DNA from: an uncultured Candidatus Saccharibacteria bacterium
GTDB taxonomy: Bacteria; Patescibacteriota; UBA1384; CAILIB01; JAUSJZ01
Assembly: GCA_964421635.1 (NCBI GenBank)
Contig: CAYQWZ010000005.1
Span: 2,748 to 66,747, forward strand
DNA length: 64,000 bases
Direction: 5' to 3'
The translations under genes and the position numbers were made by a program. Under the pieces are notes generated by a model. That model was given only the letters and a program-made list of their open reading frames with translations, did no database searches and was not told where the DNA came from. This document shows, in pieces, positions 8,101 to 39,140 of this stretch; within the stretch, counting starts at the first letter, position 1; each line of letters begins with the position of its first letter.

Positions 8101-11100
8101 TTCAAGATCCAGTTTCTAATACAGCTAGTACCGAATACGGAATCTACCAAGCTGGCACTAACTGGGATTATGGTGGCTATTTTGAAGACGATCTTCGTAC
8201 AACCGGCATGGACATTCAACAAGCTAGTGCTGATCCGCAAATTCACTTTGATTTCTACTCCTCCGGAGCAAGCGATAACACTGGTGAAACAGTCGCCGGC
8301 ACTGGCGCTGATGATGCTTCTATGGGAACAATTGCTTGGTCTAACCCCAGCAGAGTTACGGCTGATGATGGGTCACGAGCACAGTGTATCTTTTCTGGAG
8401 TCAGCACCTGTCACTATCTCAAAGCAACAAACTTTGGTTTTAGCATTCCCGAAGGCTCATCTATCATCGGCATAGTGGCAACAGTAGAAGGATTGTGTCC
8501 GGTATGGTCAGGTGCGGCTACATGGGAATCTGTACGACTAGTTGATGGAGACGGGACTATTGTGGGAGATGATAAATCCCCGGATACTGCTTTTCCTTCT
8601 GGCGAAGATACAAAAACTGATTTTGGTGCATCCGATAACACCTGGAGCGCCTCTCTAGATAGAAATGACATCAATGATTCAGATTTTGGTTTTGTTTTTA
8701 CAGGTTCAAGATCAGGAGGACTTAACTCCCAACTGTTAATTGATGCTATGTACGTCACGGTCTATTATTCCAGCGCCGAACAAGACTACGACTGGACCAT
8801 GGGTATTGATGAAGATGCCGGTGGAATATTTGCTATCTCCAGAAGCGCCGGTACGCTGGGTAGTAATAACGCTCTCACAATCGATTCAAACAGCGACGTC
8901 ACCATCTCTTCCGACTTATCTGTCACGGACACCTTGACCGTAAACGGAGTCAACGCCGCTGGTGGTTCTGCTGATGCCACCACACTAACGGGCACTCTGG
9001 GTGCTATGGATGGTTCTGATACTTACCGCGGCTTGTATCTCAATTACACCAACGCTGACCACACCGGTGCCAGTAATGTTTTTTATGGATTAGATATTGC
9101 CGGTATTACTGCCGACGCCGACGCCACCGAATATGCAATGAATATTGGAGCCGGCTGGGATGCTGGTCTTTATATCGCTGATGGTGCCACTTATTCCTTA
9201 CAGTTAGCCTCCACTGATGGCGATGCGGCTTCAGGAATAACTTTTGGTACAGACACTAACCTCTACCGCAGTGCTGCTGACACCCTGAAAACAGATGATG
9301 CCTTAATTGTTACTGGCCATACCACCTTTGAGGGAGTTACTTCTACAGGTGCTACTGGTACCGGAAAGTTAGTCTACGACAACACACCCACTTTAATTAC
9401 CCCTGCCCTGGGAGCAGCCACCTACACTACCTTATCTGGTGGTAATATAACCAATTCAGCTTTAACTTCGGGTAGAGTTACTTATGCTGGCACAGCCGGA
9501 ATCCTGCAAGACTCTGCCAACATGACATTTGATACCACAAACGGTCTAAAGCTGGCCGCCGGAAGCGCATCCGCTCTTCAACTCACCTCAACCGCTGGAA
9601 CCTCAGTGGGTGGAGTTATGTTTGGTGCAGATACTAATTTATATCGTGTCTATGATACGGAAGCCCGATTACAAACAGATAATCCTCTAAATGTTGGTGG
9701 AACAATACAAATAAATCCATTTATCAGTGGTGGTGGTTATGTTTCTACCTACTCCTATCGTGATGATACAGGTGGTGGTGGACTTTCAACAAATGCCGCT
9801 AGAGGCACAAGGGCCACCCCAACTGTAATTCACGATGACGACTATTTAGGTAACTTTAACTTTAATGGTTACGATGGAAATTCTTATGAAATAGGTGGTC
9901 AGTTTAGATTTATGGTTGATGGAACAGTTAGCGATGGGGTTGTACCGGGAAGGTTTGAAGTAAATACAACTACTTCTGGAGGAGTATCAACTTTAGGACT
10001 AACTTTAGATAGTGCCCAAAAGCTCTGGCTTGGTAGCACCTTAGACACCAACCTTTATCGCGGTGCCGCTAATGAATTAACAACCGATGATCTCCTCTCC
10101 TTCAGCTCGACTAAAGCTGCCAACGCCGTCGACTTCAAATCCTACAAACCAGATAGCGCTGGCGGAGCTCAGTTCTTATTTAACACTTCAGCCGCAATTT
10201 CATCCGCCACCATCTTTGCTGTACAAGAGAATGGTACAAACGCATTTCTAATTGATAAAGATAATCAAGTCTTAATGCCCGCTGTTTATAACGACACTGT
10301 TGGTGGCACTAATCGCGACTTATTTATAGATAACACTGGTAAACTGGGATATGTCGTCTCTTCAGAAAGATATAAAGAGAACATAGTAGCATTGCAGAAC
10401 AATAACACTGACTGGCTTTATGACCTACGACCAGTATCCTTTGATTATAAAGATAAAAATCTCGGCGTAGATCAAATTGGTTTAATAGCCGAAGAGGTAG
10501 CCGAAATATTCCCTAATATTGTTAGCTACAGCCGTGAAAATCCAAATCTGGCTGAGACAGTTAGTTACAGTAAATTAGTTGTGCCGTTGCTTAACGAAGT
10601 ACAAAATCTTAACCAAGACTTGTCTACTGTAGATATTGCAGTAGCACAAATTCAGTCGGACATTATTGAAAGACTGACCACTCAGACTGCTATCCTTAAT
10701 ACCATTGAAAGCTCTGCCGGTAAAGATTTGGTACTCAAATCAAGTTCAGGCAAAGTTATTGTTGATTCTTCTATTGAGGTAAACGGCAAAGTGATCTTTC
10801 ATAATGATCTGACTGTCCACGGAGAAATCGCTGGTGTTAGTATTGACCTTGAAGAAAATAAATCGACTGGTCGAGGTACAATAGTCAATAACGAAGATAA
10901 GGTATATATCAAAACAGATATTATTGAGCCAGACGACAAGGTACTGCTAACACCTATTATCACAAATAAAAACGAAACTGACTTACAGGGTAACAGCGTT
11001 CAGCTTTACAGAGGTATTATAGATGAGGGCATCGGATTTTGGGTACACGTCATTAGCAGTCGCGATTTAGAGAAAGAATTGCCGTTCGATTGGCTAATAG

Positions 11101-11108
11101 TCAAATAG
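5181..11108 (+). CDS. giant secreted repeat protein (1975 aa) with C-terminal tail-fibre-type intramolecular chaperone (Peptidase_S74-like) domain
   Basis: Single uninterrupted ORF; N-terminal signal peptide (..VFVPLQAESA); long G/T/A/S-rich beta-repeat region with large internal duplications; a lectin-like segment (~8.25-8.77 kb); near the C-terminus GYVVSSERYKENIVALQNNNTDWLYDLRPVSFDYKDKN..IGLIAEEVAEIFPNIV..SYSKLVVPLLNEVQNL matches the endosialidase/T5 L-shaped tail-fibre chaperone motif (S-x-x-R-x-K-x-N-I ... PV-x-Y/F-x-YK ... G-x-IAQEV ... Y-x-x-L-x-P-L-L), followed by a predicted coiled-coil. Confidence 0.9.
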   Translation: MKGGQITREFKLWRPLSRVFVWAVLALVVFVPLQAESAINKQLQFSGKLTKSDKTNVTNGAYGFKFEIFSVASGGSALWTETWNGSSSKITVTDGLFSIALGTYTDLSVVDFNSSSLYLAISFDPGNDGTYEELFTTRIRLTSSPYSLNSDKLDGKDESEFADLSEAETISNDWLFGEDIRFGDADNSNYIGFQAPANISTNVIWTLPSVDGTVNQVLKTDGNGTLSWADSSSGTIDLTSEVTGTLPITNGGTGQITAANAINALLPTQTGNSGKYLTTNGSVSSWAAVAGGGASNIADLDDVTISSVADNEIFQYDNGTSKWINQTFAEAGIAVTGDLHDAVTVVDSDTIDFTLSTQQITAIVIADSIDDTHIDWGSGANQVDLDDIPDGTSYERVAAAQLSSGIYIDASTATKGIASFTAADFDAASGVISIDYANGTAASGAAKGFLTAADWTTFNSKQAAGSYITSFTLAGTSGSNQTISQGDTLTIAAGTDITTTGGATDIITVANSSTLATVTGRGATTTTLVNLDGGIAVDTSNFTVSGTTGATAITAVNAASGSLNALGLSGTLGIFNGTDTFRGIYLNYTNANHTGSSNYVYGLDIAAITADAEATERAINVGVGWDVGLYIADAATYSLQLASTDGDAASGITFGTDTNLYRSAANTLKTDDALIVTGHTTFEGVTSTGATGTGKLVYGTSPTLATPILGAATYTTLSGGNITNSALTSGRLTYAGTSGILQDSANMTFGATYGLTLAAGSTSGLQLSSTAGTAAGGILLGTDTNIYRSAANILKTDDSFTVGTNLVVTGSTTLDTSLTGMVKASSGVISAASAGTDYLVPGGTLFTLAGTSGSNQTISQGNTLTIAAGTDITTTGGATDTVTVANSSTLATVTGRGATTTTLTNLDGGIAIDTDNFTVSGTSGALAIAGAMTTGTAANISFDSAGQTGALTGLNVDFSNITADGTNTVYGIHVQDPVSNTASTEYGIYQAGTNWDYGGYFEDDLRTTGMDIQQASADPQIHFDFYSSGASDNTGETVAGTGADDASMGTIAWSNPSRVTADDGSRAQCIFSGVSTCHYLKATNFGFSIPEGSSIIGIVATVEGLCPVWSGAATWESVRLVDGDGTIVGDDKSPDTAFPSGEDTKTDFGASDNTWSASLDRNDINDSDFGFVFTGSRSGGLNSQLLIDAMYVTVYYSSAEQDYDWTMGIDEDAGGIFAISRSAGTLGSNNALTIDSNSDVTISSDLSVTDTLTVNGVNAAGGSADATTLTGTLGAMDGSDTYRGLYLNYTNADHTGASNVFYGLDIAGITADADATEYAMNIGAGWDAGLYIADGATYSLQLASTDGDAASGITFGTDTNLYRSAADTLKTDDALIVTGHTTFEGVTSTGATGTGKLVYDNTPTLITPALGAATYTTLSGGNITNSALTSGRVTYAGTAGILQDSANMTFDTTNGLKLAAGSASALQLTSTAGTSVGGVMFGADTNLYRVYDTEARLQTDNPLNVGGTIQINPFISGGGYVSTYSYRDDTGGGGLSTNAARGTRATPTVIHDDDYLGNFNFNGYDGNSYEIGGQFRFMVDGTVSDGVVPGRFEVNTTTSGGVSTLGLTLDSAQKLWLGSTLDTNLYRGAANELTTDDLLSFSSTKAANAVDFKSYKPDSAGGAQFLFNTSAAISSATIFAVQENGTNAFLIDKDNQVLMPAVYNDTVGGTNRDLFIDNTGKLGYVVSSERYKENIVALQNNNTDWLYDLRPVSFDYKDKNLGVDQIGLIAEEVAEIFPNIVSYSRENPNLAETVSYSKLVVPLLNEVQNLNQDLSTVDIAVAQIQSDIIERLTTQTAILNTIESSAGKDLVLKSSSGKVIVDSSIEVNGKVIFHNDLTVHGEIAGVSIDLEENKSTGRGTIVNNEDKVYIKTDIIEPDDKVLLTPIITNKNETDLQGNSVQLYRGIIDEGIGFWVHVISSRDLEKELPFDWLIVK
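6590..9660 (+). repeat. large intragenic protein-level repeats inside the giant gene (unit ~6590-7715 repeated at ~7715-8060; unit ~6890-7560 repeated at ~8995-9640)
   Basis: Near-identical amino-acid stretches (e.g. FTLAGTSGSNQTISQG(D/N)TLTIAAGTDITTTGGATD..; YLNYTNA(N/D)HTG...LYRSAA(N/D)TLKTDDALIVTGHTTFEGVTSTGATGTGKLVY) encoded with many synonymous nucleotide differences. Confidence 0.85.
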
Positions 11109-11129: not shown

Positions 11130-12800
11130 ATGCTTTTTTGGTACACTTTTTTTTCGTTGATTGTCTTCTCCCCCATCCTTTATGTTTATGGATTCGGAGG
11201 ATTTGAAGCAGCTAAAATTACTTTCTTTTTAATTACAGGCTCATTAATGCTCATCGCTTTCGTCAAAAACAAAAAGAATAATAATGACTCTATAATTATT
11301 AATCGACCGCTTACCACTTACTCCTTAATAGCTTTGGCAAGCTATATTACTGTTAGGTCTTTCTTTTGTGAAGGATTAAACTTGGCTTGGCTTGGCTCTT
11401 ATCTAACTCATCTTGGATCCTTCGTTTGGCTGGTTTTTGTTTTGCTGATAATTGCTTTAATAAATTTGAGAGGAAATGAAAAGATTAAAAAAACTATTAT
11501 TCTATCGGCTTTTATATCTTTAGTAGCGGTTTTAATATCTGTTGCTCTGCAACACTTCGGCTTGATGGGAGGGGAGTGGCACATCTTTGACGATCCAACA
11601 CGGGGAAGAACTCTTTTCGGTTCAATTGGCAGCTCTACTTATTTAGGCATAGTAATTACCATGTTGACATTTATAAGCCTACCTCTGATTCGTGCTTCTA
11701 ATAATATTTTCCGATACTTAGCTATCACTGTTTTAGCCATTGCAACCATTACAGTCTTTCTAACAAAATCTATTACTGGTATAGCTATTTTAGTGCTAGG
11801 CCTCGCCCTTCATTTACTTAAGGCTCCACAGTATATAAATAAATTTATTTTTATTTCACTGTTCATTATAATTTCTATATCGCCCTTTGTTTTATTATCA
11901 CCTAAAATGCAATCTTCATTATCTTCGGTTGCTCCCTCTTTAGTAGATAGAGCCTATATTTGGCAAAGCTCTATTGACTCGCTTGATAATTCAAAAACAA
12001 TTTTGTTTGGAGCCGGCTCAGAACATTTTCAATTTCTATATGATCAGCATTTTCCTCAAGAAAGAATCGACCTGCCTTCTGTTACTGAAGAGGAACCGCA
12101 TAATATAATTTTAGAAATTCTAACTGAATGGGGTTTAGTAGGATTATTACTATTTCTTACTTTCTCATACTATTTATTACAAGAAAGTAAGCTTAACAAA
12201 ACCGCCACTTTGAACTTGTTACTACTATGGTTGCTACTACAATTTAATTTTTTGTCTGCCAATCTGCTTGTAATATCTTTAATACTAATTAAATTAGCCT
12301 TTGAGATAAAATCTCAAAAGAGTATCATCCTTAGAACAAAGTTGCTTCTTCCCCTTAGCGCTCTAATATTTGTTTTATCTTCAGTAATTGGGTTGGGTAC
12401 TATTGCTTCATCTGTTGCTAATCATTTTGGAGGAGTGAGTTCAGCTAAATTAGATTTCAATAAATCTGTCAGTATTTTCGAACAAGCTACAAAATATTCT
12501 ATATTTGATAAATCCTTTACTTTACTTCAGTTGGCCGAAGCCAGAGCCAACCGAGCCATATTAAATAATGACTATAGTGATTATGCCCAGACCGAAGAAA
12601 TTTTACTACAAGCTCTCAAAGGAAATCCTAGTGCGCGGCAATATGCCATCGCTATTCGTATCATTGAGGCATACGCCGCGCACGACAACAACGCTTCACG
12701 AGAGCTATCTCGCACCGTAAATTTATTCGCAAAAAAATGGGGTAGCCATCCTAAACACCAAGATATAATTAAGAGCTTTAAAAAGGTTGGTTGGTTATAA
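11130..12800 (+). CDS. O-antigen ligase family (Wzy_C) polytopic membrane protein with C-terminal TPR-like soluble domain; candidate O-oligosaccharyltransferase
   Basis: About 10 TM helices; Wzy_C signature region ..GAGSEHFQFLY...PHNIILEILTEWGLVGLLLFL; C-terminal ~150 aa helical repeat region; 21 nt downstream of giant gene. Confidence 0.7.
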   Translation: MLFWYTFFSLIVFSPILYVYGFGGFEAAKITFFLITGSLMLIAFVKNKKNNNDSIIINRPLTTYSLIALASYITVRSFFCEGLNLAWLGSYLTHLGSFVWLVFVLLIIALINLRGNEKIKKTIILSAFISLVAVLISVALQHFGLMGGEWHIFDDPTRGRTLFGSIGSSTYLGIVITMLTFISLPLIRASNNIFRYLAITVLAIATITVFLTKSITGIAILVLGLALHLLKAPQYINKFIFISLFIIISISPFVLLSPKMQSSLSSVAPSLVDRAYIWQSSIDSLDNSKTILFGAGSEHFQFLYDQHFPQERIDLPSVTEEEPHNIILEILTEWGLVGLLLFLTFSYYLLQESKLNKTATLNLLLLWLLLQFNFLSANLLVISLILIKLAFEIKSQKSIILRTKLLLPLSALIFVLSSVIGLGTIASSVANHFGGVSSAKLDFNKSVSIFEQATKYSIFDKSFTLLQLAEARANRAILNNDYSDYAQTEEILLQALKGNPSARQYAIAIRIIEAYAAHDNNASRELSRTVNLFAKKWGSHPKHQDIIKSFKKVGWL

Positions 12801-24507: not shown

Positions 24508-24601
24508 CCATATCCATCAACAATCTATAGTAAATTTTCACTGTCAACAAAAAACTGCCATTGATAAAATTTAAACTTCTCTGCTAGCAGTAAGAGATGA
24601 A

Positions 24602-25315
24602 TTATTCGTGTCTTAAAGCATCTATTGGACTTAAAGCAGCCGCTTTCTTGGCCGGGTACCAACCAAAAACCAACCCCACTGCCATTGCTACTGATAAAGC
24701 CAAAATTATTGAGTTCATATTCATAGCCACACTTAAATCAAATAAGGAGCTGGCTAGATAAGCAAAAATATAACCCAATATAACCCCGACAATGCCACCA
24801 AGAGTAGTTAACACAATAGCCTCAATCATGAACTGAGATAGAATATCGCTTCGCTTAGCACCAATAGCTTTTAGTAATCCTATTTCTTTAGTCCGCTCGG
24901 CAATAGTAACCAACATAATATTCATTATGCCAATTCCACCAACCACTAAAGAGATAGCCGCAATTCCTGCTAATAAAGAGACCATAGTACTAGTAACACT
25001 ACTAATCGAATCAATCATTGACTGGGCACTTCTTAATCTAAAGTCAGCGTCGTCAGCGTTAGAAATACCATGATTGTCTAAAAGTACTTGCTCAACTGTC
25101 TCTGTATAGTCAGTCACTATTTCTGGATCAGAAATAGCCACACTAATAGAAGTTGGATTATCTGAACCAACTAAAATTTTTTGAGCTGTACCAATAGGCG
25201 TTAAAACATCTGAACTATCGTTAATAACCCCAATAACTCTGAAACTACTTTGGTCAACTCTAATTTTTTTACCAACTACAGATTGATTTTCACCAAAAAG
25301 CTCGGTCATCCGCAT
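24602..25315 (-). pseudogene. C-terminal fragment of MacB/FtsX-type ABC permease
   Basis: Translation matches the end of the MacB periplasmic domain plus the 4-TM FtsX domain (..TAERTKEIGLLKAIGA.., ..LSPIDALRHE); upstream in frame there is no MacB-like sequence (stop at 25373-25375) and no ATPase domain, so the gene is 5'-truncated. Confidence 0.7.
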
Positions 25316-27430
25316 GACCCAAATATATCAGTGGTACCGAAAGAGTTTTCTGACTACAAGACCAATTCAATACTCACTCCTACTGATAGACGTGTGCTCG
25401 AACAGAGTTATTTCAAAGGTGGTACTCCATCTAACATAACCATTGACCACTTGCAAAACATACACGAGTACTTCAAGAGTAAGGGGTATTCCGCAATACA
25501 AACACCACGACCTTCAGACGTAAGTGGTGCCGCCACAGAGATGGTTATTATTGACCCCTCTAAGATTAAAACCAAATCCCAACTAACCGACCTCTACAAC
25601 CAAGCACACGCTAAACCTAGTGAGTTACCCCAGAACCCTCTACTAGCAGAAGCCCGTAAGTATAAGAGTGCGGAGGAGTTTGTGAATAAAATACAAGGTA
25701 GTAAGACTCAATACACAGATTACACCCCAGGATTAAGGACTGGTGGCACTTCTTCTGAGTCTATGAGGATAAGCAAACTGGGTGTTAATCCAAATCAGGA
25801 AGTAACAATTTATAGAGGAGTCCCAAAAGGTATAAAAGGTAGTATAAATTCTGGTGATTTTGTAACTACTGATTTACAGTCGGCAAAAGACTATGCAGGT
25901 AATGGTGCCGTGTTATCAACTAAAACAAAAGCCAAGAACCTTATCACGGAGTACTCTAGTGAGTTTGATAAAAACAACCCATTTAGTCCTGGCAGTGAAT
26001 TTATCTACTCGACAGAAAGTGCGTCAAAACCATTGACCAAATCCCAACTAACCGACATCTACAACCAAGCCACTAAGGCAGCATCTCTAAAAACTGCGGG
26101 ACAAACTGGACTAGAACCATTGCAGTCCAGTAAAGCGTTAGGGGTAGAACAACAAAATATACAAAAGGTTCAGATTGGGGGAGGTTTGAAAGCTCTTCAA
26201 CCAGAAGAGTCTGTTTTTCTCGGTAAAAAGCTGAAAGTATCGGAGACACCAGAACAAATAACGATAAAAAGAGAAGGAACAAAACAATTATCAGAATGGG
26301 AGTCCAAAGAAGGTATATCAAAGCGTTCATCTAGTTTAGATAGTATAGAGACTCCAAGAGTTGTCAAGCCCGAAGACATTAAAACAGGTGAATACTTAGA
26401 CCCCGAAGATGCTATACAAGCGACAGAGTTTGCGAGAGAGTTTGGTGATGAAAAAACATTTAAGCCTATATTTGATAGATTTATAGGTAAAAGAGAAGCA
26501 GCCAAAACTAAGGGCGCTTTAGTTGGTAACAAATATGTCAATATATCCGTTAAAGATGGCTTTGATGTAATAGATGGACTAGAAGGGATTGGTACTAATA
26601 AAGCGGTTGGAAAAGATGTAGCGTTACTTAGAAACGAGTACGACACCTTACGACAGCTGGCTAATAAAGAAGGTCTAAACATAAACTTCAAAGAGGATTA
26701 TATAACTCATATTTGGAAAGAATCTCCAGCAGATGTACAAAAAGTTCTTTCCGCTAAGGGTGGTTTTAAGTACGCTAAACAAAGAACTATACCAACATAT
26801 AGAGAAGGTTTGAAACTTGGACTTACACCTAAATATACCCATCCTGCACCTATAATTGCAGAATATGTTACAAAGTTAGAACAAACAAAAGCAGCTCTGG
26901 ATATGTTCAAAACTCTGAAGAAACAGGGGATAATAGTGCCTGCTAAAGTTGGCGCTAGTAATATAGATTTTGAGCCAATCGTTGCGGGTGGATTTCCTAA
27001 GTCAACTACTAACATTGGTGATGGAAGAACTTATATCGGCAACTGGTATGCTCCTAAACAAGTTGCAGATTTGATAAATAGTGTTTTCTCTCCTAGAGCA
27101 GAAAATAAGTTATTAGGATTCACAGCCAACATTTCAAGGGGAGTACAAGATGTATCTATGGGTGGTGGTATCGCATATACTCCTATTAACTTCTTTACTA
27201 TTGCTAACTCAATAAAGGAATTGACTGCATTTCGTGGTAGAGCCCCCTTTAAGGCTTTAGCACACTCAATAACTGATGGTTCTTCTAAAAGATATTTTGC
27301 TCAACACGCAAGCACTATTATAAAGATGCAAGAGAATAACATTCCAATATCAACTAGTTTTTCTACTGAAACTCTTGTACCAAGAGCATTATCTAAAAGC
27401 ATTGGTCAAAAAGCTGCATCTGCTTCTTGA
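25250..27430 (+). CDS. large hypothetical protein (up to 726 aa) with internal repeat KSQLTD(L/I)YNQA; no recognisable domains
   Basis: Long ORF antisense to, and lying between, the two efflux-gene fragments; first 66 nt overlap the MacB fragment so the true start is probably an internal GTG/ATG (e.g. GTG ~25331); repeat copies near aa 105-125 and 262-282. Confidence 0.65.
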   Translation: MVNSNFFTNYRLIFTKKLGHPHDPNISVVPKEFSDYKTNSILTPTDRRVLEQSYFKGGTPSNITIDHLQNIHEYFKSKGYSAIQTPRPSDVSGAATEMVIIDPSKIKTKSQLTDLYNQAHAKPSELPQNPLLAEARKYKSAEEFVNKIQGSKTQYTDYTPGLRTGGTSSESMRISKLGVNPNQEVTIYRGVPKGIKGSINSGDFVTTDLQSAKDYAGNGAVLSTKTKAKNLITEYSSEFDKNNPFSPGSEFIYSTESASKPLTKSQLTDIYNQATKAASLKTAGQTGLEPLQSSKALGVEQQNIQKVQIGGGLKALQPEESVFLGKKLKVSETPEQITIKREGTKQLSEWESKEGISKRSSSLDSIETPRVVKPEDIKTGEYLDPEDAIQATEFAREFGDEKTFKPIFDRFIGKREAAKTKGALVGNKYVNISVKDGFDVIDGLEGIGTNKAVGKDVALLRNEYDTLRQLANKEGLNINFKEDYITHIWKESPADVQKVLSAKGGFKYAKQRTIPTYREGLKLGLTPKYTHPAPIIAEYVTKLEQTKAALDMFKTLKKQGIIVPAKVGASNIDFEPIVAGGFPKSTTNIGDGRTYIGNWYAPKQVADLINSVFSPRAENKLLGFTANISRGVQDVSMGGGIAYTPINFFTIANSIKELTAFRGRAPFKALAHSITDGSSKRYFAQHASTIIKMQENNIPISTSFSTETLVPRALSKSIGQKAASAS

Positions 27431-27744
27431 ATAACTGTAAATAGAGTTTGCCCTTCATAAACATAATCTCCATTACTAACAGATAATCCTCTCACCACAC
27501 CACTGACAGAAGCCGTTATATCTACTGATCCTACCACCTCTATCTCACCAACTTCTGAAATAGAATTTATTACATTACCTTTTTCTACTTGGCCGTAGGT
27601 ATATTCAGTACTAGCCGAATCTTGATCTTTTTTAGTACCAAAAAAATAAAACAGACCTCCTGTGACTAAAACAGCAAGAATAATATATTTTAGAAAATTT
27701 TTTTTAAGCATAATTTTATTAGCTTCCCTTTGGCATGTTGCCAT
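27406..27744 (-). pseudogene. N-terminal fragment of HlyD-family membrane fusion protein
   Basis: 112 aa: signal-anchor plus first lipoyl-like half (..VSGVVRGLSVSNGDYVYEGQTLFTV..) but no coiled-coil or beta-barrel domains; compare intact paralog at 506-1747. Confidence 0.6.
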
Positions 27745-28036
27745 TCATCTTACGCATAGTGCGCATAGTATCTCTCATTTCCACCCTTTCTTCTTCAGAC
27801 ATATTTTCCATTCCCTCTGGCATCTCTGGTTTCACTTCTTCCATTTTCTGAGCAATCTCTTCTTCAGACAATCCTTGTTCTCGCCAATACTCTTGCATTA
27901 CCTCATTTTGACGTTCCATGTTTTTGGGGTTCATGTTAAAACGACCCCGATTATTTTGTTTCTTTAAAAAAAACCAACTGCCGAGTAAAACTATAACTAG
28001 CAGTAACAAAAAAATGATGATCTTCTTTTTCTTCAT
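27719..28036 (-). CDS. small secreted/anchored Met-rich protein
   Basis: 105 aa, N-terminal hydrophobic anchor, C-terminal half rich in M/E (MPEGMENMSEEERVEMRDTMRTMRKMNGNMP). Confidence 0.5.
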   Translation of the reverse strand: MKKKKIIIFLLLLVIVLLGSWFFLKKQNNRGRFNMNPKNMERQNEVMQEYWREQGLSEEEIAQKMEEVKPEMPEGMENMSEEERVEMRDTMRTMRKMNGNMPKGS

Positions 28037-29955: not shown

Positions 29956-30456
29956 TTAGGTCAAAAGGTCTGCTCGATTTACAGCTCGTACATTATGCTC
30001 AATCATCTGCTGAGCTTCGTTGAACACGAATCTTCCCCTTAGAATTTCACCGTCAAGCGCCCTTGGCAGCCACAAAACATCATCTGGCCACATGAGATCA
30101 AATGGTAATCCGTCAAAAGAAAACCATTGCGGATTCATCTCTTCTGTCTCAACCGGTTCCCCTTGCCAGCTGGTACAGAAATAAGTAAGAACTCTTTGGC
30201 TCCAAGCTATATTATGTGGGAAGAAGAAATCACTCACTACTCGTAGCTCCAAGCCGCCAACTACTACCCCTATTTCTTCTAGGGTTTCGCGGCGAGCTGA
30301 AGCTTCAACGGTTTCACCTTCTTCCGGTTTGCCGCCGGTTCCATTCCATTTTCCCTGACCGAACCCTCGTTTCTTCATAGCCAGAAGAACAGACCGCTCT
30401 TGTGTGTCGACCAAAAACACCAACGAGACCTGACGCAACTCTGTTGTTTCATTCAT
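29956..30456 (-). CDS. NUDIX hydrolase
   Basis: Nudix box GGKPEEGETVEASARRETLEEIGV. Confidence 0.8.
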   Translation of the reverse strand: MNETTELRQVSLVFLVDTQERSVLLAMKKRGFGQGKWNGTGGKPEEGETVEASARRETLEEIGVVVGGLELRVVSDFFFPHNIAWSQRVLTYFCTSWQGEPVETEEMNPQWFSFDGLPFDLMWPDDVLWLPRALDGEILRGRFVFNEAQQMIEHNVRAVNRADLLT

Positions 30457-30503
30457 GGCTTCACTCCTTCACTCTCATAATAGCAAATTGAATAAAAAAA
30501 AAT

Positions 30504-30530
30504 GCCTGCCCTAACTATTGTCAGGCAGGC
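30504..30530 (-). terminator. GC-rich palindrome family copy 1 (GCCTGCC-n13-GGCAGGC) acting as terminator of 30521-31561
   Basis: Hairpin immediately at the stop codon, followed on the minus strand by T9. Confidence 0.6.
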
Positions 30531-31561
30531 GGAGTTTGACCACGCGCGTCTTCGGCTCTTCTTTCTATTAAGTCTTGTAGCACTTCGGGTGGATAATGCC
30601 ACTCTGGCCGATTGTTCCCAGCGACTCTTTTCTGTCGTCGCTTACCTCTGATTCTATTTAGCACCCAGGTAAGACTTTTACCAACCCTTCTACTTAATTC
30701 ACATGTTGTGAGCCAATCTCCTGCTTCAACAAGTCTATTTACCTCAGGCCTTAATTCGTCAACTATTTCAGGAGGATAATGGATAAATATCTTACCCGAC
30801 CCAGGAATTCGTCTTAACTCTCCATCGGTACGACCTTTAAGACGAGCTCGAACCCATAAATAATCTTTTCCAAGTATGACAGCAATACTATGAGCACTTA
30901 ACCAGTCACCCCTTTCTAGATATTTATTAGACAGACCTTTGAGAATAGGTAATACCCACGGAGGCCAATGTCTAGTAACTCGGTTAGCTTTATTTGCCCG
31001 TTCTTCTCCGGGCTGATTCATCTGATCTAAACGGCTACCAATCCAGAGACGAGAACGACCTAGCTCTTGTGTCATATATCCCATGGTAATCCAGCCATTT
31101 GCCCCTTTACTCTCAGCTGACATCCTTACAAGTTCCGGAATAACCGCCAGAGGATAACAACGAAACACTCCGCCTCTGCAAATTCGTTTCTCATTAGGAA
31201 AGGGCAAACTTTCTATTCGTGCCTTGACCCACTTATAGCTCCTACCAACTCTGGAATATATTTGACCAACTGATAGCCAGTCTCGAGCAGGCTGGTACAG
31301 CCCAGAATCGTTCTCTTGTCGGCGTAGCTTTCTAAGTAAATTCGACAATAGTAGTAGCCTGTCATATATCCAGACTCGAGCCTCACCGTAATGCTCAAAT
31401 GTCATTTTACTTTCCCAAGCCCGCTTATAAACAAGCTCTACAATATTTCGTGCATCATGAGTGTCAAAAACCAGACTGATAGCACCACTTAGCAGGATTT
31501 CTTCTGTTGCTGTTTTGAATCGAGCGAACCTTTGAGCTCGTTGTTCATCTACCAACCTCAT
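30521..31561 (-). CDS. hypothetical protein with four tandem Trp-containing HTH-like repeats
   Basis: 346 aa, GC-elevated; repeats RDWLSVGQIYSRVGRSYKWVKARI / NGWITMGYMTQELGRSRLWIGSRL / GDWLSAHSIAVILGKDYLWVRARL / GDWLTTCELSRRVGKSLTWVLNRI. Confidence 0.65.
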   Translation of the reverse strand: MRLVDEQRAQRFARFKTATEEILLSGAISLVFDTHDARNIVELVYKRAWESKMTFEHYGEARVWIYDRLLLLSNLLRKLRRQENDSGLYQPARDWLSVGQIYSRVGRSYKWVKARIESLPFPNEKRICRGGVFRCYPLAVIPELVRMSAESKGANGWITMGYMTQELGRSRLWIGSRLDQMNQPGEERANKANRVTRHWPPWVLPILKGLSNKYLERGDWLSAHSIAVILGKDYLWVRARLKGRTDGELRRIPGSGKIFIHYPPEIVDELRPEVNRLVEAGDWLTTCELSRRVGKSLTWVLNRIRGKRRQKRVAGNNRPEWHYPPEVLQDLIERRAEDARGQTPPA

Positions 31562-31646
31562 CTTTCAACCTCCTTCCCGCTGAAGTTACTCTGTACAAGA
31601 GCACTCTTATCAAAACAAGAAAAGTTATTTAAACCAATAAAAAAAT

Positions 31647-31671
31647 GCCTGCCGACTATTGTCAGGCAGGC
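31647..31671 (-). terminator. GC-rich palindrome family copy 2 (near-identical to copy 1) acting as terminator of 31689-32450
   Basis: AAAAATGCCTGCCGACTATTGTCAGGCAGGCGG; T-run follows on the minus strand. Confidence 0.6.
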
Positions 31672-31688
31672 GGTTGGTAGGTCTTGTC

Positions 31689-32450
31689 TTACTCTTCGTC
31701 GAAGATGCGAAATGCTCGTTGCAGGTATGCAGTGACTTTTGTCATATCAAGTTGGTTTTGAGGATTACGCAACTGCCCTTCAGCATCAATGCTGAGAGTT
31801 GGCCACAGCTGGGCCATCCTTTCAATTGGCTCCAATGTGTCTGGCCCCAAGCCACCAGCCACAACAAGCTGAAAGTATTGGCCGTGCGAGATATTGATAG
31901 CACCAAGTCTTTCAACTGTAGCATCGGAATCGAATGGCAAGCCACGACCTCGGCTGAAATCTACTAAAACATAGTCAAACAGCTTGTGATATTTAGTCAG
32001 TTTGTATAACAGCTTATTCATGCTTCCAGTTTCTGTAATAGCAGCTCGACTGATTTGCATCACCAGCAGATCTTCAGGATACACCGTACGATACACTTTC
32101 AACATCTCAACCTCTGGCCATGGATGGTTGATTTGAGTTCCGTGACAGTGTTGTCCGCCCATTTCTCTGGCTTCCATAACACCATTTAGAGGGGTTTGTT
32201 CATCTTCGCCAATGCAGTAATGAATAAGGTTGAGTGCTCGTTTGTCTGGTGAGAAAATTTGGGACAATTGATTCGGCGGTGGTAAACGAGTGTAGCCAAC
32301 TAACACCCCTACCATCAAGCGATGAGTCGAATGGTTTGGCACCGCAGCCAAAGCTTGCGCCACCTCCGAGCCGGTAGTGAAGCCGGTAGCACCAATGTAC
32401 GGTGGCGCTTCTCTTGACATGTCAGTTCTCCTCCCATTTACTCGTATCAC
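31689..32450 (-). CDS. TIM-barrel protein, weakly phosphoribosylanthranilate-isomerase (TrpF)-like
   Basis: 253 aa, GC-elevated; ..SRGRGLPFDSDATVERL.. and ..VVAGGLGPDTLEPIERM...LSIDAEGQLRN resemble the TrpF phosphate-binding C-terminal half; assignment tentative. Confidence 0.5.
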   Translation of the reverse strand: MIRVNGRRTDMSREAPPYIGATGFTTGSEVAQALAAVPNHSTHRLMVGVLVGYTRLPPPNQLSQIFSPDKRALNLIHYCIGEDEQTPLNGVMEAREMGGQHCHGTQINHPWPEVEMLKVYRTVYPEDLLVMQISRAAITETGSMNKLLYKLTKYHKLFDYVLVDFSRGRGLPFDSDATVERLGAINISHGQYFQLVVAGGLGPDTLEPIERMAQLWPTLSIDAEGQLRNPQNQLDMTKVTAYLQRAFRIFDEE

Positions 32451-32883
32451 ATCGCTGAGATTCTCTCAGCTCAGTCAAAATGCGATCAACATGCTCGAGT
32501 GTCATGTAGCCTTCCGGCAACTGCACACCATCATCCGACAATACCTCTCTGAACAATGCATTGAGCTGGACGCCTGTAGGATTATTGCCAAGAGCCTGCA
32601 TAATGCGTTCCATAAGATCTTCCTCAAAAGCAGGCATCTCAATTTGAACAGCTTTCAGCATACACCCAAGCAACACAGTTTCCATAGAAACCAAAACGGC
32701 TTCGGCAACTGGAAACTGAGCTTTTGACAGGGAACCTGCAGTTATCGGCAAGTACTCTTTGCCCGCACCTCGTGAGAAGCGAACTGACCAGCTAGGATCG
32801 TTCTCAGAACCTTCAGTAAACATGATGAATAGGTCAAAAGGATTTGTCACAATCCCAAGAGCAGCTTCGAGTTCCATTTCCAC
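32422..32883 (-). CDS. hypothetical protein
   Basis: 153-aa ORF (GTG at 32883 or ATG at 32877), overlaps next gene by 29 nt (operon); preceded by conserved leader element. Confidence 0.5.
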   Translation of the reverse strand: MEMELEAALGIVTNPFDLFIMFTEGSENDPSWSVRFSRGAGKEYLPITAGSLSKAQFPVAEAVLVSMETVLLGCMLKAVQIEMPAFEEDLMERIMQALGNNPTGVQLNALFREVLSDDGVQLPEGYMTLEHVDRILTELRESQRCDTSKWEEN

Positions 32884-32895
32884 ACTCTCTTTCTA

Positions 32896-32922
32896 CGCTT
32901 TCGCGCTCTCACAAACTACCAG
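32896..32922 (-). promoter_or_regulatory. conserved 27-nt leader element copy 1 (minus strand CTGGTAGTTTGTGAGAGCGCGAAAGCG)
   Basis: Exact duplicate of element at 33229-33255, each 13-20 nt upstream of a start codon; contains GCGC-GAAA-GCG mini-hairpin. Confidence 0.5.
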
Positions 32923-32983
32923 TAATCAGCTATAGAAGTCAATAAAAAAACTGCCTTCCCCCGAGGAAAAGCAGCTAGATCTA

Positions 32984-33211
32984 CTATGAAGGTATACGAA
33001 ACCAAATGATCAAAAATAATGGGTTGAAAAGAAGCGTGCCACCAAGACAGACCATTAGAGTAGTAGTGCCGTAACTGTCAAACTCCTGAGGGTTACGAAA
33101 AGCCCACCATAGCTGTACAGTACATACAAGCAGAATTGCCAATCCCATTAGTCGATAGTTAATCATATTGTGATCCCAGAATTCAATGATCGCACCTATC
33201 GCGTTTTTCAT
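32984..33211 (-). CDS. small membrane protein
   Basis: 75 aa, two TM helices, RBS GAGGAAGGA upstream; preceded by leader element copy 2. Confidence 0.5.
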   Translation of the reverse strand: MKNAIGAIIEFWDHNMINYRLMGLAILLVCTVQLWWAFRNPQEFDSYGTTTLMVCLGGTLLFNPLFLIIWFRIPS

Positions 33212-33228
33212 ACCGTCCTTCCTCTCTG

Positions 33229-33255
33229 CGCTTTCGCGCTCTCACAAACTACCAG
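33229..33255 (-). promoter_or_regulatory. conserved 27-nt leader element copy 2
   Basis: Identical to 32896-32922. Confidence 0.5.
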
Positions 33256-33312
33256 AAAAGAACAGTAGTAGTCAACAAAAAAAGCCCCGGATAAATCCGA
33301 GACTGGAGGTAG

Positions 33313-33723
33313 CTACTTGCGTCTCATGCGAGCTGAAGGATGGTTAAAGTCCAAGAGTATAGTTCCGTTTTCTCCACATATGACTCGCCCGTCACGAAGA
33401 GCAAGGTTTATTCTGGGTCTAGTTGTGCTAAACAATGTAACGGTCAACCCTCGTGGACCCTCCACACAAGGAAATGATTTACTTACGATATTCCACTTCC
33501 TGCAGAATCTATCAACAAAGATATGGCCTCCTATTGTTGCTTTTTCAAAATCCTCTTCGGTTATTGGCAAACTACTGATCTGTCCCCAAACCCAGCACTT
33601 CGCGATAGATTCGAATGAATTCAGCACTGGCTCTATTGACACCAAACTCGTCAAGCACCTGACCTCGAACGGTCGGATGATGGAACTGCAATTGCTCATC
33701 ATAAAGCTTCTCGAGCAAACCAA
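33313..33723 (-). CDS. hypothetical protein (start uncertain; overlaps 33572-33913 in another frame)
   Basis: ORF ending just before a hairpin+T7 terminator (33270-33300 on minus strand); N-terminal 50 codons overlap the neighbouring ORF, so the true start may be internal. Confidence 0.4.
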   Translation of the reverse strand: MVCSRSFMMSNCSSIIRPFEVRCLTSLVSIEPVLNSFESIAKCWVWGQISSLPITEEDFEKATIGGHIFVDRFCRKWNIVSKSFPCVEGPRGLTVTLFSTTRPRINLALRDGRVICGENGTILLDFNHPSARMRRK

Positions 33724-33913
33724 TCACTTCTTCAAACTTCTCGGCACCTTGTTCAGATGCATACAACAAAAGGCTAATGATTTTACCTGAACAGTTTTCG
33801 CAGTTGTTTAAGAGTGTTTCAATGCGTTGCCATTGTTCAAATGTAAGCACCTCTGCAAGCTTCTCTTGAAACTTTTGCTTCAGTGCTTCTCTCATTGTGT
33901 CGTCTGCTGACAT
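33572..33913 (-). CDS. hypothetical helical protein (CENC motif)
   Basis: 113-aa ORF, helical composition, GC-elevated. Confidence 0.5.
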   Translation of the reverse strand: MSADDTMREALKQKFQEKLAEVLTFEQWQRIETLLNNCENCSGKIISLLLYASEQGAEKFEEVIGLLEKLYDEQLQFHHPTVRGQVLDEFGVNRASAEFIRIYREVLGLGTDQ

Positions 33914-34004
33914 GTGGCTCTCCTTCCTAATTAGACTCTAGCCAAATATATTACTTTAATCAATGCAAAAGTGATTATCGCTGAATATTTAAGGATTAAA
34001 AAAC

Positions 34005-34024
34005 TGCCTGCCGGTCGGCAGGCA
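34005..34024 (-). terminator. GC-rich palindrome family copy 3 (TGCCTGCCGG-TCGGCAGGCA)
   Basis: 10 nt downstream of stop of 34034-34342; followed on minus strand by T6. Confidence 0.55.
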
Positions 34025-34033
34025 AGCCTTACC

Positions 34034-34342
34034 CTATACGGGCTCGGCAAGGGTTAGTAGACCAGCGTCTACAAGAGTATCTTGTACTAGATTCAGCAGC
34101 TGTCCAGGTGGTCCGAAGACAATCAGCTTAAGTAGATCGCCTCGTTGCCCACCATCTTGGCAGACAACTACTACTGTTTCGCCATCACAAAGAATAATGT
34201 TGCTGCCAGGCGTAACACATTCGGTGCCCTGTGCTCGACTACCCCAGCCGCGAGCAACAAAACCGCGCTCTACACAATGTCGCCACACGCCCTCTAATCT
34301 TTCGCGCGCTCGCTCCAGCAGACCCTTCTCTGACTCTGACAT
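34034..34342 (-). CDS. hypothetical protein, GC-elevated
   Basis: 102-aa ORF with dedicated palindromic terminator. Confidence 0.5.
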   Translation of the reverse strand: MSESEKGLLERARERLEGVWRHCVERGFVARGWGSRAQGTECVTPGSNIILCDGETVVVVCQDGGQRGDLLKLIVFGPPGQLLNLVQDTLVDAGLLTLAEPV

Positions 34343-34421
34343 CCTTTTCTCCCTAAAATATAGGATATCAAAAAAATCAGCCCTTATTGCTGCTATTCAA
34401 TTTCTGCATACTGAAAAATTT

Positions 34422-34661
34422 CTATTTCACCAACAGCTCTAAAGCAAAGTAAACTAGATAAGCTGGCCAGACGATGGCTTTCAATAAACCAACGACGCCT
34501 GCGCCAAAAGTAGCTGCTTGACCTATAAAGTATACCGCCGCTCCAATTAAGCCAAGGCCGTAAACTCCACCGCCACCATGATGATAGCGTCGCCTGTCTT
34601 TACGACACTCTTTTCTCCATTCTCTCCACTCTTTCCAATCCTTTTTATCTTTTGTATTCAT
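34422..34661 (-). CDS. small Gly-zipper membrane protein
   Basis: 79 aa; basic N-terminus then GGGGVYGLGLIGAAVYFIGQAATFGAGVVGL. Confidence 0.45.
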   Translation of the reverse strand: MNTKDKKDWKEWREWRKECRKDRRRYHHGGGGVYGLGLIGAAVYFIGQAATFGAGVVGLLKAIVWPAYLVYFALELLVK

Positions 34662-34752
34662 GTTTTAATTATATCTCAAATCTAGAAGCGCAAGCTAATA
34701 ATTTTTTTTGGCTACTATACTTGGTATAATGACGGCAGGAGGATACGACCCC

Positions 34753-35034
34753 ATGATACTCTTCGCTGTCGGTAAGCAGACAAATGGTTGGGGAGGATAT
34801 CAGTGGCAATCCTATTTCGTAGTAGCCCAAAACGAAGCTGAAGCAATTGAGCTAGTTGATCGCTACTCCGGCGAAGGTTACTGGAGCAATCATCCCGACC
34901 CACCCACAGTAGTTGTAGTGGCAAGTTCAATCGATATCGTCCCTGGTATGCCTAAAATCTTCCCTATAGATTCACTTTGTGCACCCCGATTCTTCCCATC
35001 CGATGTGCCCACTCTAGCACCTCTAGTCATTTAA
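34753..35034 (+). CDS. hypothetical protein
   Basis: RBS AGGAGGA 11 nt before ATG at 34753, extended -10 TGGTATAAT upstream, perfect intrinsic terminator downstream (ORF track shows longer 34708 start). Confidence 0.55.
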   Translation: MILFAVGKQTNGWGGYQWQSYFVVAQNEAEAIELVDRYSGEGYWSNHPDPPTVVVVASSIDIVPGMPKIFPIDSLCAPRFFPSDVPTLAPLVI

Positions 35035-39065: not shown

Positions 39066-39140
39066 TGGCTCCTGGGGTCGGATTCGAACCGACAACCTAG
39101 TGATTAACAGTCACTTGCTCTACCATTGAGCTACCCAGGA
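39066..39140 (-). tRNA. tRNA-Asn (anticodon GTT)
   Basis: Minus-strand 75-nt cloverleaf TCCTGGG-TA-GCTCAATGGTAGAGC-A-AGTGA-CTGTTAA-TCACT-AGGTT-GTCGGTTCGAATCCGAC-CCCAGGA-G-CCA; 7-bp acceptor, T-loop TTCGAAT, encoded CCA. Confidence 0.85.

What the first reader, a model, noticed from the sequence alone, without database searches (positions are those of the whole stretch)
25250..27430. 700-aa ORFan with internal KSQLTD(L/I)YNQA repeat occupying the disrupted efflux locus
I recognise no domains in this protein. It has two copies of a ~20-aa motif (..KTKSQLTDLYNQAHAKPSELP.. and ..LTKSQLTDIYNQATKAASLK..) in its N-terminal third and no signal peptide. It is the only gene in this stretch on the + strand. 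Its acquisition coincided with destruction of an efflux pump, which suggests a recently acquired cargo gene such as a toxin or effector, a phage-derived protein or a defence component.
Basis: partly seen in the sequence, partly recalled or inferred. Interest (0 to 1): 0.5.

Follow-up and report, generated by a model that had tools for sequence, protein, structure and literature searches.

The report
Dead fragment of phage virion protein gene
The "ORFan" is a 2.1-kb internal piece of a large phage virion ("polyvalent") protein gene, cut off at both ends, that replaced the middle of a MacAB-type efflux operon; it is most likely a non-functional relic, and its repeated motif is the conserved linker that separates effector modules in that phage protein family.

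Summary
The ORF, its two KSQLTD(L/I)YNQA copies and the broken efflux genes on either side are all real and are identical in five independent assemblies.

The ORF is not an intact cargo gene. It is an internal fragment of a roughly 1100-1300-aa phage polyvalent virion protein gene. Its parts, in order:
- The last ~95 aa of an ART-PolyVal-type module, with the catalytic N-terminal half missing.
- One complete small ADP-ribosyltransferase-fold module.
- The first half of a conserved ~700-aa core. All 145 relatives with this core continue 315-680 aa beyond the point where the ORF stops.

Homology starts and stops within about 15 nt of the junctions with a MacB 3' fragment and an HlyD 5' fragment. 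The start and stop codons lie in efflux-derived DNA. I found no ribosome-binding site or promoter. Full-length relatives sit in podovirus-like structural modules; the window has no other phage genes.

The "repeat" is the C-side linker of a linker pair (EARKYKSAEEFV ... KSQLTDIWNKA) that brackets interchangeable modules in this family. Both linkers are conserved at synonymous sites across 75-101 viral contexts, with an invariant AAATCCCAACT and a conserved GAGGAGTTTGTG. That is unexplained, was not found in the paper library I searched, and is the only surprising result here.

The parts
24602..25306 (-). 3' fragment of a MacB-type ABC permease gene (last ~233 of ~408 aa: end of the periplasmic domain plus the FtsX domain)
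   Evidence: Pfam FtsX E 2.7e-23 and MacB_PCD positions 131-206 of 207. 48% identity to the C-terminal 233 aa of the Ca. Amesbacteria MacB.
25291..25319 (.). Left junction. 25292-25306 (ACCAAAAAGCTCGGT) reads TKKLG on + (phage homologue) and TELFG on - (MacB homologue), so it is a possible 9-15-nt microhomology. A perfect 6-bp palindrome GGTCAT-ccgc-ATGACC lies at 25304-25319.
   Evidence: Sequence. DNA alignment to the P0003 gene becomes similar exactly at 25291. MacB relatives align from residue 3-5. Hairpin reported.
25250..27430 (+). The ORF as read by the first stage (726 codons from TTG; 699 from the GTG at 25331)
25292..25570 (+). Remnant of module 1: the C-terminal ~93 aa of an ART-PolyVal-type module. 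The N-linker, the YHGT histidine strand and the second-strand motif are missing.
   Evidence: 79% identity to P0003 residues 312-423. P0003 residues 253-403 match PF18760 positions 8-130, and the P0003 module starts at residue 237 with YHGT near residue 256.
25571..25606 (+). C-side linker, copy 1 (TKSQLTDLYNQA), containing the invariant AAATCCCAACT
25649..25684 (+). N-side linker EARKYKSAEEFV (GAAGCCCGTAAGTATAAGAGTGCGGAGGAGTTTGTG)
25685..26035 (+). Module 2, complete: a small ADP-ribosyltransferase-fold domain. The invariant family residues are Arg (YRG, aa 189), Thr (VTT, aa 206) and Glu (SEFIY, aa 250).
26036..26071 (+). C-side linker, copy 2 (TKSQLTDIYNQA)
26072..26356 (+). Poorly conserved spacer between the modules and the core
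   Evidence: Only weak alignment to P0002 and P0004 here. The equivalent part of the P0002 model has pLDDT below 50.
26357..27421 (+). First half of the conserved core of the phage virion-protein family. It ends inside a predicted long helix of the core.
   Evidence: 63% identity to P0002 residues 274-704 of 1131. 145 family representatives continue 315-680 aa further. Conserved motifs downstream of P0002 residue 704 are absent here. AF2 model of P0002: helix 698-736. BFVD matches E 3e-15 to 1e-4.
27418..27432 (.). Right junction. Phage homology ends at about 27421 and HlyD homology resumes by about 27432 (possibly from 27418). The ORF's stop codon (27428-27430) and the HlyD fragment's stop codon (27406-27408) each lie in the other's DNA.
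27422..27744 (-). 5' fragment of an HlyD-type membrane-fusion protein gene (first ~105 of ~370 aa)
   Evidence: Pfam Biotin_lipoyl_2, HlyD_D23 and HlyD_3 hits. Comparison with the 371-aa HlyD in L006.

Best explanation
A ~2.12-kb internal segment of a phage gene for a large virion-associated polyvalent protein has replaced ~2.0 kb of a chromosomal HlyD-ABC-MacB efflux operon. The host is probably a Patescibacteria/CPR bacterium. The insert lies in inverted orientation. The lost DNA encoded the 3' two-thirds of hlyD, the whole ATPase gene and the 5' 40% of macB.

What is shown: the segment keeps the donor reading frame, so it still reads as one long ORF. It lacks the donor gene's start, its first module(s), the catalytic half of module 1 and the C-terminal 315-680 aa of the conserved core. 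It has no recognisable ribosome-binding site or promoter.

What is inferred: it is a recent, non-functional relic. It most likely arose by illegitimate (microhomology-assisted) joining of phage DNA into a chromosomal break or deletion during an infection or DNA uptake. The alternative is a prophage trimmed by two deletions.

In the intact donor family, the protein is encoded in the phage structural gene module (shown). By analogy with polyvalent proteins, it is presumably packaged and delivered into the host with the DNA (inferred). It carries exchangeable effector modules such as ADP-ribosyltransferase-like and ParB-like domains. Each module is bracketed by the linker pair EARKYKSAEEFV ... 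KSQLTDIWNKA.
For: Truncation at the N end. Homology to P0003 (79% identity) starts at codon 15, upstream of the called GTG start, in the middle of an ART-PolyVal-type module.

Truncation at the C end. Alignment to P0002 runs to 2 residues before the stop, and P0002 continues for 427 aa. All 145 core-family representatives continue 315-680 aa (median 537; median length 1300 aa). Conserved downstream motifs are absent. The cut falls inside a confident helix of the model.

Phage origin. P0002, P0003, P0004, P0073 and P0074 lie beside an SU10-type adaptor, a ~650-aa tail gene and lysins, and P0004 sits on 29-40-kb contigs with ERF and HNH genes. P0027 follows terminase and a 672-aa gene. The fold matches proteins annotated 'Large polyvalent protein associated domain-containing' and podovirus 'Structural protein'. 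Many homologues carry PF18760.

Isolated fragment. The neighbours are the efflux fragments and ordinary chromosomal genes, with no phage hits of note.

Operon damage. The intact gene order and sizes come from L006.

No expression signals. No SD-like string precedes any candidate start codon. There is no + strand promoter-like site between 24570 and the ORF, and the one at 24541-24570 is no better than shuffled-sequence expectation.

Reproducibility. Five assemblies are identical.

Linker role. The N- and C-linker motifs bracket different module types in nearly all 60 first-round homologues.
Against: - The frame is fully open and module 2 keeps every residue that is invariant in its family, so a translated product with some activity cannot be excluded.
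- All copies found are identical, so there is no divergence with which to test for relaxed or purifying selection.
- Several well-supported genes in this window also lack an SD-like string upstream, so its absence here is weak evidence.
- The donor phage was not found. The best relatives are only 63-79% identical per segment and each shares only one segment.
- No strain with the intact operon was found, so the order and number of events is inferred.
- The host's taxonomic placement rests only on best hits of one gene.
Confidence: 0.82

Rival explanations
1. The fragment is a functional, domesticated gene. Translation starts inside it (for example at GTG 25331 or ATG 25541) and yields a protein whose intact ADP-ribosyltransferase-like module acts as a toxin, an effector or an anti-phage (superinfection-exclusion) factor.
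For: The frame is open over 726 codons. Module 2 is complete, retains the invariant Arg/Thr/Glu and folds confidently in silico. The same allele is present in five samples.
Against: Both ends are cut inside folded units. No start codon has an SD-like string and no promoter was found. There is no partner or immunity gene. None of the 145 core-family relatives has this truncated architecture. The open frame is equally expected from a recent event.
Confidence: 0.1
2. It is the last remnant of a complete prophage. The prophage integrated into the efflux operon and was then removed by two separate deletions, each running from phage DNA into an efflux gene. On this view there was no single capture of a DNA fragment.
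For: Prophage decay by deletion is common (general knowledge). The donor family is encoded by ~30-45-kb phages.
Against: It needs three events instead of one. Both deletions would have to end inside the same phage gene. No integrase, att site, tRNA or other phage gene lies nearby; the only tRNA in the window is at 39066. The amount of host DNA lost (~2.0 kb) is nearly equal to the insert (~2.1 kb), and the left junction shows possible microhomology. Neither scenario can be tested directly here.
Confidence: 0.2
3. The arrangement is an assembly or binning chimera that joins a phage contig to a bacterial contig.
For: The junctions are abrupt and the insert comes from a different kind of genome.
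Against: An identical 6-kb region, with both junctions, appears in MEGAHIT (ENA, three samples), Logan and JGI assemblies. Shared sequence at the junctions is at most 15 nt, too short to mislead k=141 assembly.
Confidence: 0.02

Closest known systems
Polyvalent proteins of phages and conjugative elements (Iyer, Burroughs, Anand, de Souza, Aravind 2017, PMC5512222), including the ART-PolyVal domain PF18760
   Same: The homologues are large multi-module proteins encoded next to phage structural or portal genes. They carry ART-PolyVal, ParB-like and other effector-type modules in varying combinations. The core folds like BFVD proteins annotated as containing large-polyvalent-protein-associated domains.
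   Different: The window copy is a chromosomal fragment, not a whole protein. Its only complete catalytic-type module has Arg/Thr/Glu at the conserved positions, not the His/Tyr/Asp described for ART-PolyVal. The ~700-aa core matches no Pfam, PHROG or PDB sequence model. The paper contains no occurrence of the word 'linker' or 'interdomain', and the linker peptide strings occur in no paper of the library.
Virion-packaged, host-injected phage proteins of podoviruses (T7 gp14-16 internal core proteins, T4 Alt, N4 vRNAP; cyanophage A4 pre-ejectosome protein 9k3a_B)
   Different: No sequence or fold match of the core to any solved ejection protein. Packaging and injection are inferred from gene position only.
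MacAB-type tripartite efflux operon (HlyD membrane-fusion protein, ABC ATPase, FtsX/MacB permease)
   Same: The flanking fragments belong to these families and lie in the expected order and orientation.
   Different: Only the first ~105 aa of HlyD and the last ~233 aa of MacB remain, and the ATPase gene is gone. The pump cannot be functional.
Shufflon and invertible tail-fibre cassettes (Rci/sfx, Gin/gix), as a functional analogy for the linkers
   Same: Short nucleotide-conserved sequences lie inside a coding region, at the boundaries of interchangeable protein segments.
   Different: The linkers here are direct repeats, not inverted ones. No recombinase is associated with them. Exchange is inferred only from mosaic architectures. 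This is an analogy from memory and was not tested.

Membership tests
Polyvalent protein (sensu Iyer et al. 2017) | Several unrelated effector-type domains in one large polypeptide | tested here: met
   Met for the homologues: ART-PolyVal, TIYRG-type ART-like, ParB-like DGxHR and coiled-coil modules occur between the same linkers. The window fragment keeps 1 complete module, 1 partial module and half of the core.
Polyvalent protein (sensu Iyer et al. 2017) | Encoded by a phage or conjugative element, next to virion or portal genes | tested here: not met
   Met for relatives. Not met for the window copy, which has only efflux fragments and chromosomal genes around it.
ART-PolyVal (PF18760) | Complete domain with His (strand 1), Tyr (strand 2) and Asp (strand 5) | tested here: not met
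   No Pfam hit for the window ORF at E<=1. Module 1 corresponds only to roughly the last third of the P0003 stretch (residues 253-403) that matches PF18760 positions 8-130, so the His and Tyr positions are absent. At the Asp position (GYDG in other modules) it has GYSA.
ADP-ribosyltransferase fold superfamily (module 2, 25685-26035) | Split beta-sheet ART core fold | tested here: inconclusive
ADP-ribosyltransferase fold superfamily (module 2) | Conserved catalytic-type triad on strands 1, 2 and 5 | tested here: met
   Arg in YRG at the end of strand 39-46, Thr in VTT at strand 59-61 and Glu at the start of strand 105-108 are invariant or nearly so in 18 sequences. I inferred their equivalence to the R-S-E triad from order and topology, not from a superposition.
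ADP-ribosyltransferase fold superfamily (module 2) | NAD+ binding and ADP-ribosyl transfer | not testable with these tools
   Needs biochemistry.
Intact protein-coding gene | Full length relative to its family, with its own start signals | tested here: not met
   Truncated at both ends. No SD-like string at any candidate start and no convincing promoter.
MacAB-type efflux operon | Complete HlyD, ABC ATPase and MacB genes | tested here: not met
   Only the HlyD N-terminal ~105 aa and the MacB C-terminal ~233 aa remain, and there is no ATPase gene.

The most novel reading that the evidence does not exclude
The linker pair that brackets modules in these phage polyvalent proteins is a nucleotide-level element as well as a peptide linker. 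One part is an invariant AAATCCCAACT inside KSQLTD. The other is a conserved AAGAGTGCGGAGGAGTTTGTG inside KYKSAEEFV, which is a GGAGG string 5 nt before an in-frame GTG. The element would act either as a homology cassette through which effector modules are swapped among phages, or as an RNA/translation signal (pausing, internal initiation or processing) at module boundaries. On this reading the window ORF is a fossil carrying three such elements. Its own mosaic fits exchange at the linkers: module 1 is closest to P0003, module 2 to P0008/P0011/P0012 and the core to P0002, and none of these relatives shares the other segments.
Probability: 0.4. Interest if true: 0.65.

Novelty: new member of a known kind. 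Interest (0 to 1): 0.4.

Why it matters
For the genome itself, the finding removes an apparent ORFan or toxin candidate. The locus should be annotated as three pseudogene fragments, and the efflux pump is dead.

It is also a clean, datable footprint of phage DNA joined into the chromosome of a probable CPR bacterium. It links that host to an uncultured podovirus-like phage lineage that has no relatives among GenBank phages.

More broadly, the work points to a large uncharacterised family of phage virion proteins (1350 cluster representatives). It also shows a modular linker system whose synonymous-site conservation suggests a mechanism for shuffling or expressing injected effector domains. That could be tested experimentally.

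Tried and rejected
- Protein-guided scan of IMG/VR with the ORF: no confirmed relative.
- tblastn of the ORF and of P0002 against 50,697 GenBank phages: no match.
- Profile searches of PDB sequences with module 2 and with the core: nothing significant.
- PHROGs for six full-length relatives: nothing.
- Foldseek of the P0002 model against PDB: best E 0.096, no real match.
- Search for a strain with the intact operon (an 'empty site'). The GTDB genome scan, a degenerate DNA pattern and a protein-guided scan of JGI metagenomes found nothing closer than 48% identity.
- Transposon-type origin: no terminal inverted repeats or target-site duplication around the insert, and no tRNA or integrase nearby.
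- The second cluster member, P0213, differs only in how the start codon was translated, so there is no sequence variation to analyse.
- Internal translation initiation at the linker GTG. The few stand-alone modules start 10-30 codons upstream of the linker, not at the GTG, so that test does not support it.
- Literature search for the linker peptides: no paper in the library contains them.
Full report
**1. Observation**

The ORF at 25250-27430 (+) exists as described. It has 726 codons from a TTG; public gene callers start it at the GTG at 25331, giving 699 aa (P0001). Both motif copies are present and are 34/35 nt identical at the DNA level (25571-25605 and 26036-26070). Pfam finds nothing in the ORF. 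PHROGs matches aa 98-234 to the C-terminal part of phrog_2579 (E 7.6e-9).

The flanks are a C-terminal MacB/FtsX fragment (24602-25315, -) and an N-terminal HlyD fragment (27406-27744, -). The 6-kb region is 100% identical in three ENA assemblies, a Logan assembly and a JGI contig, which rules out an assembly artefact.

**2. What the ORF is made of**

Sixty-one proteins match at E<=1e-3 in the word-indexed search. Most are 700-1270 aa and many carry PF18760 (ART-PolyVal). The exhaustive search finds 1350 cluster representatives, 217 of them at E<=1e-30.

Mapping the hits on the 726-aa frame gives three segments.

- **Segment (i), aa 15-120.** It is 79% identical to P0003 residues 312-423. In P0003 this is the rear part of a module that begins at residue 237 with the N-side linker, followed by YHGT. 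P0003 residues 253-403 match PF18760 positions 8-130. The window therefore keeps only the back part of that module. The similarity starts upstream of the annotated GTG start.
- **Segment (ii), aa 127-276.** This is a complete module, about 50% identical to more than 20 proteins.
- **Segment (iii), aa 316-724.** It is 63% identical to P0002 residues 274-704. P0002 then continues to residue 1131.

**3. Truncation**

A second search with the P0002 core found 970-1256-aa proteins aligned over 72-99% of the query; the window ORF covers only 49% of it.

Among 145 representatives that contain the core, every one continues 315-680 aa (median 537) beyond the point matching the ORF's last residue. Their median length is 1300 aa. 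Conserved motifs downstream of P0002 residue 704 are missing from the window. These include PTFKRFMP, NFYGL, FFAPxYRE and the GIPFLSSIAT region.

In the AlphaFold model of P0002 the core (residues ~350-1020) is confident. The cut falls inside helix 698-736.

**4. Junctions**

*Left junction.* DNA similarity to the P0003 gene begins at 25291. Similarity of the opposite strand to MacB proteins runs up to TELFG, which is 25292-25306. The 15 nt ACCAAAAAGCTCGGT are therefore compatible with both parents, which suggests microhomology. A perfect 6-bp palindrome lies at 25304-25319.

*Right junction.* Phage similarity ends at about 27421, and HlyD similarity resumes by about 27432, possibly from 27418.

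The ORF's upstream stop, its TTG and its terminal TGA all lie in efflux-derived DNA. Conversely, the start of the MacB fragment and the stop of the HlyD fragment lie in phage-derived DNA.

By comparison with the intact Ca. Amesbacteria operon (HlyD 371 aa, ATPase 221 aa, MacB 408 aa), about 2.0 kb were lost and about 2.12 kb gained, in inverted orientation.

**5. Origin of the insert**

Full-length relatives lie in phage structural modules.

- P0002, P0003, P0004, P0073 and P0074 sit next to an SU10-type adaptor, a ~650-aa tail gene and lysins. P0004 is on 29-40-kb contigs that also carry ERF and HNH genes.
- P0027 follows terminase and a 672-aa gene.
- The P0002 model matches BFVD proteins at E 3e-15 to 1e-4. 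These are annotated 'Large polyvalent protein associated domain-containing protein', or 'Structural protein' of podoviruses (Cellulophaga phi19:3, Flavobacterium vB_FspP_elemoC_14-1A, Pseudomonas KPP25).
- Nothing in PDB matches, and nothing among GenBank phages does.

The window has no other phage genes around the insert. There is no tRNA or integrase nearby, and no terminal repeats or target duplication.

The host is probably a Patescibacteria/CPR bacterium. This rests only on the best MacB relatives and is an inference.

**6. Module 2**

Eighteen aligned sequences share invariant Arg (YRG) and Glu (E-x-[IV]-Y) and a nearly invariant Thr (VTT). Profile-profile comparison with ART-PolyVal modules aligns YRG with YHG and FVTTDxxxAxxYAG with fFTxDkxxAxxY (E 7.7e-5, probability 62%).

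I read it as a minimal ART-fold module with an Arg/Thr/Glu configuration. Iyer et al. describe His/Tyr/Asp for the ARTs of polyvalent proteins (PMC5512222). Activity is untested.

**7. The 'repeat'**

In nearly all homologues, modules are bracketed by EARKYKSAEEFV(KAQ) on the N side and (IKT)KSQLTDIWNKA on the C side. What lies between differs: ART-PolyVal type, TIYRG type, ParB-like DGxHR type or coiled coil.

The window ORF is itself a mosaic. Its three segments have different best relatives (P0003; P0008/P0011/P0012; P0002), and none of these shares the other segments.

**8. Unexpected: the linkers are conserved as DNA**

Pairwise, identical residues use identical codons in 77% of linker positions against 48% elsewhere.

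I scanned IMG/VR with fully degenerate back-translations and analysed the hits.

*C-linker, 75 distinct contexts:*

| Residue | Codon seen | Count | Background in same ORFs |
|---|---|---|---|
| Lys | AAA | 75/75 | 0.69 |
| Ser | TCC | 75/75 | 0.08 |
| Gln | CAA | 75/75 | 0.69 |

The next codons (Thr, Asp, Ile, Asn) vary freely. The result is an invariant 11-mer, AAATCCCAACT.

*N-linker, 101 distinct contexts:*

| Residue | Codon seen | Count | Background |
|---|---|---|---|
| Lys | AAG | 94/101 | 0.28 |
| Ser | AGT | 94/101 | 0.24 |
| Glu (first of EEF) | GAG | 95/101 | 0.27 |
| Glu (second of EEF) | GAG | 93/101 | 0.27 |
| Val | GTG | 70/91 | 0.13 |

The Glu eight codons upstream in the same linker (the E of EARKYK) prefers GAA (85/97). 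The conserved string contains GGAGG 5 nt before an in-frame GTG.

The contexts are not phylogenetically independent, so the binomial P values overstate significance. The contrast between neighbouring codons is still hard to explain by ancestry alone.

Most N-linkers lie deep inside ORFs (median 390 codons after the last in-frame stop). The few stand-alone modules start upstream of the linker, so internal initiation is not supported by that test.

No paper in the library contains these peptide strings, and the word 'linker' does not occur in the polyvalent-protein paper. The function of this conservation is unexplained.

**9. Expression**

None of the candidate start codons in the first 130 codons has an SD-like string, although several genuine genes in the window also lack one. 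The promoter scan finds no more sites than shuffled sequence. Upstream of the ORF on the + strand there is only one weak site, 760 nt away and just after a terminator-like hairpin. I infer that the fragment is silent or poorly expressed.

**10. Verdict**

The locus is ordinary as biology, a pseudogenised efflux operon with captured phage DNA. It gives a view into a large uncharacterised phage virion-protein family and into a linker system with nucleotide-level conservation.

Noticed in passing
window 25571-25605, 26036-26070, 25649-25684; IMG/VR loci L176-L360: Both linker peptides are conserved at synonymous sites across 75-101 distinct viral contexts. The C-linker holds an invariant AAATCCCAACT, with Ser always TCC against an 8% background. 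The N-linker holds AAGAGTGCGGAGGAGTTTGTG, a GGAGG string 5 nt before an in-frame GTG. Neighbouring codons vary freely.
   Followed up: partly
window 25304-25319: A perfect 6-bp palindrome (GGTCAT ccgc ATGACC) lies exactly on the left junction between efflux and phage DNA. It could be chance, or a hairpin that favoured breakage or joining.
   Followed up: no
window 5181-11108 (+) and 11130-12800 (+): A 1975-aa protein has a Peptidase_S74 (endosialidase intramolecular chaperone) domain near its C terminus, a feature typical of phage tail fibres and some large surface proteins. It is followed by a Wzy_C O-antigen-ligase-like gene.
   Followed up: no
window 30000-35000, especially 30521-31561 (-): This stretch has higher GC (0.44-0.49 against 0.36-0.42 around it) and several ORFs with no Pfam or PHROG hit. 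The 346-aa ORF contains about four copies of a ~45-aa repeat (W..[ST]....A..LG+S..W[VI]..R[IL]), which looks like repeated helix-turn-helix units.
   Followed up: no
L005, L086-L091 (phage contigs of relatives): The phage lineage that carries full-length relatives has a conserved '~450-aa gene followed by the large protein' pair and an 'SU10-type adaptor followed by a ~650-aa gene' pair. It often also carries several glycosyltransferase and methyltransferase genes. No member is present among 50,697 GenBank phage records.
   Followed up: partly
window 27719-28036 (-): A 105-aa ORF lies just upstream of the HlyD fragment. It has an N-terminal transmembrane helix and a Met/Glu-rich tail (MEEVKPEMPEGMENMSEEERVEMRDTMRTMRKM). 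It may be a metal-binding or accessory component of the former efflux operon.
   Followed up: no
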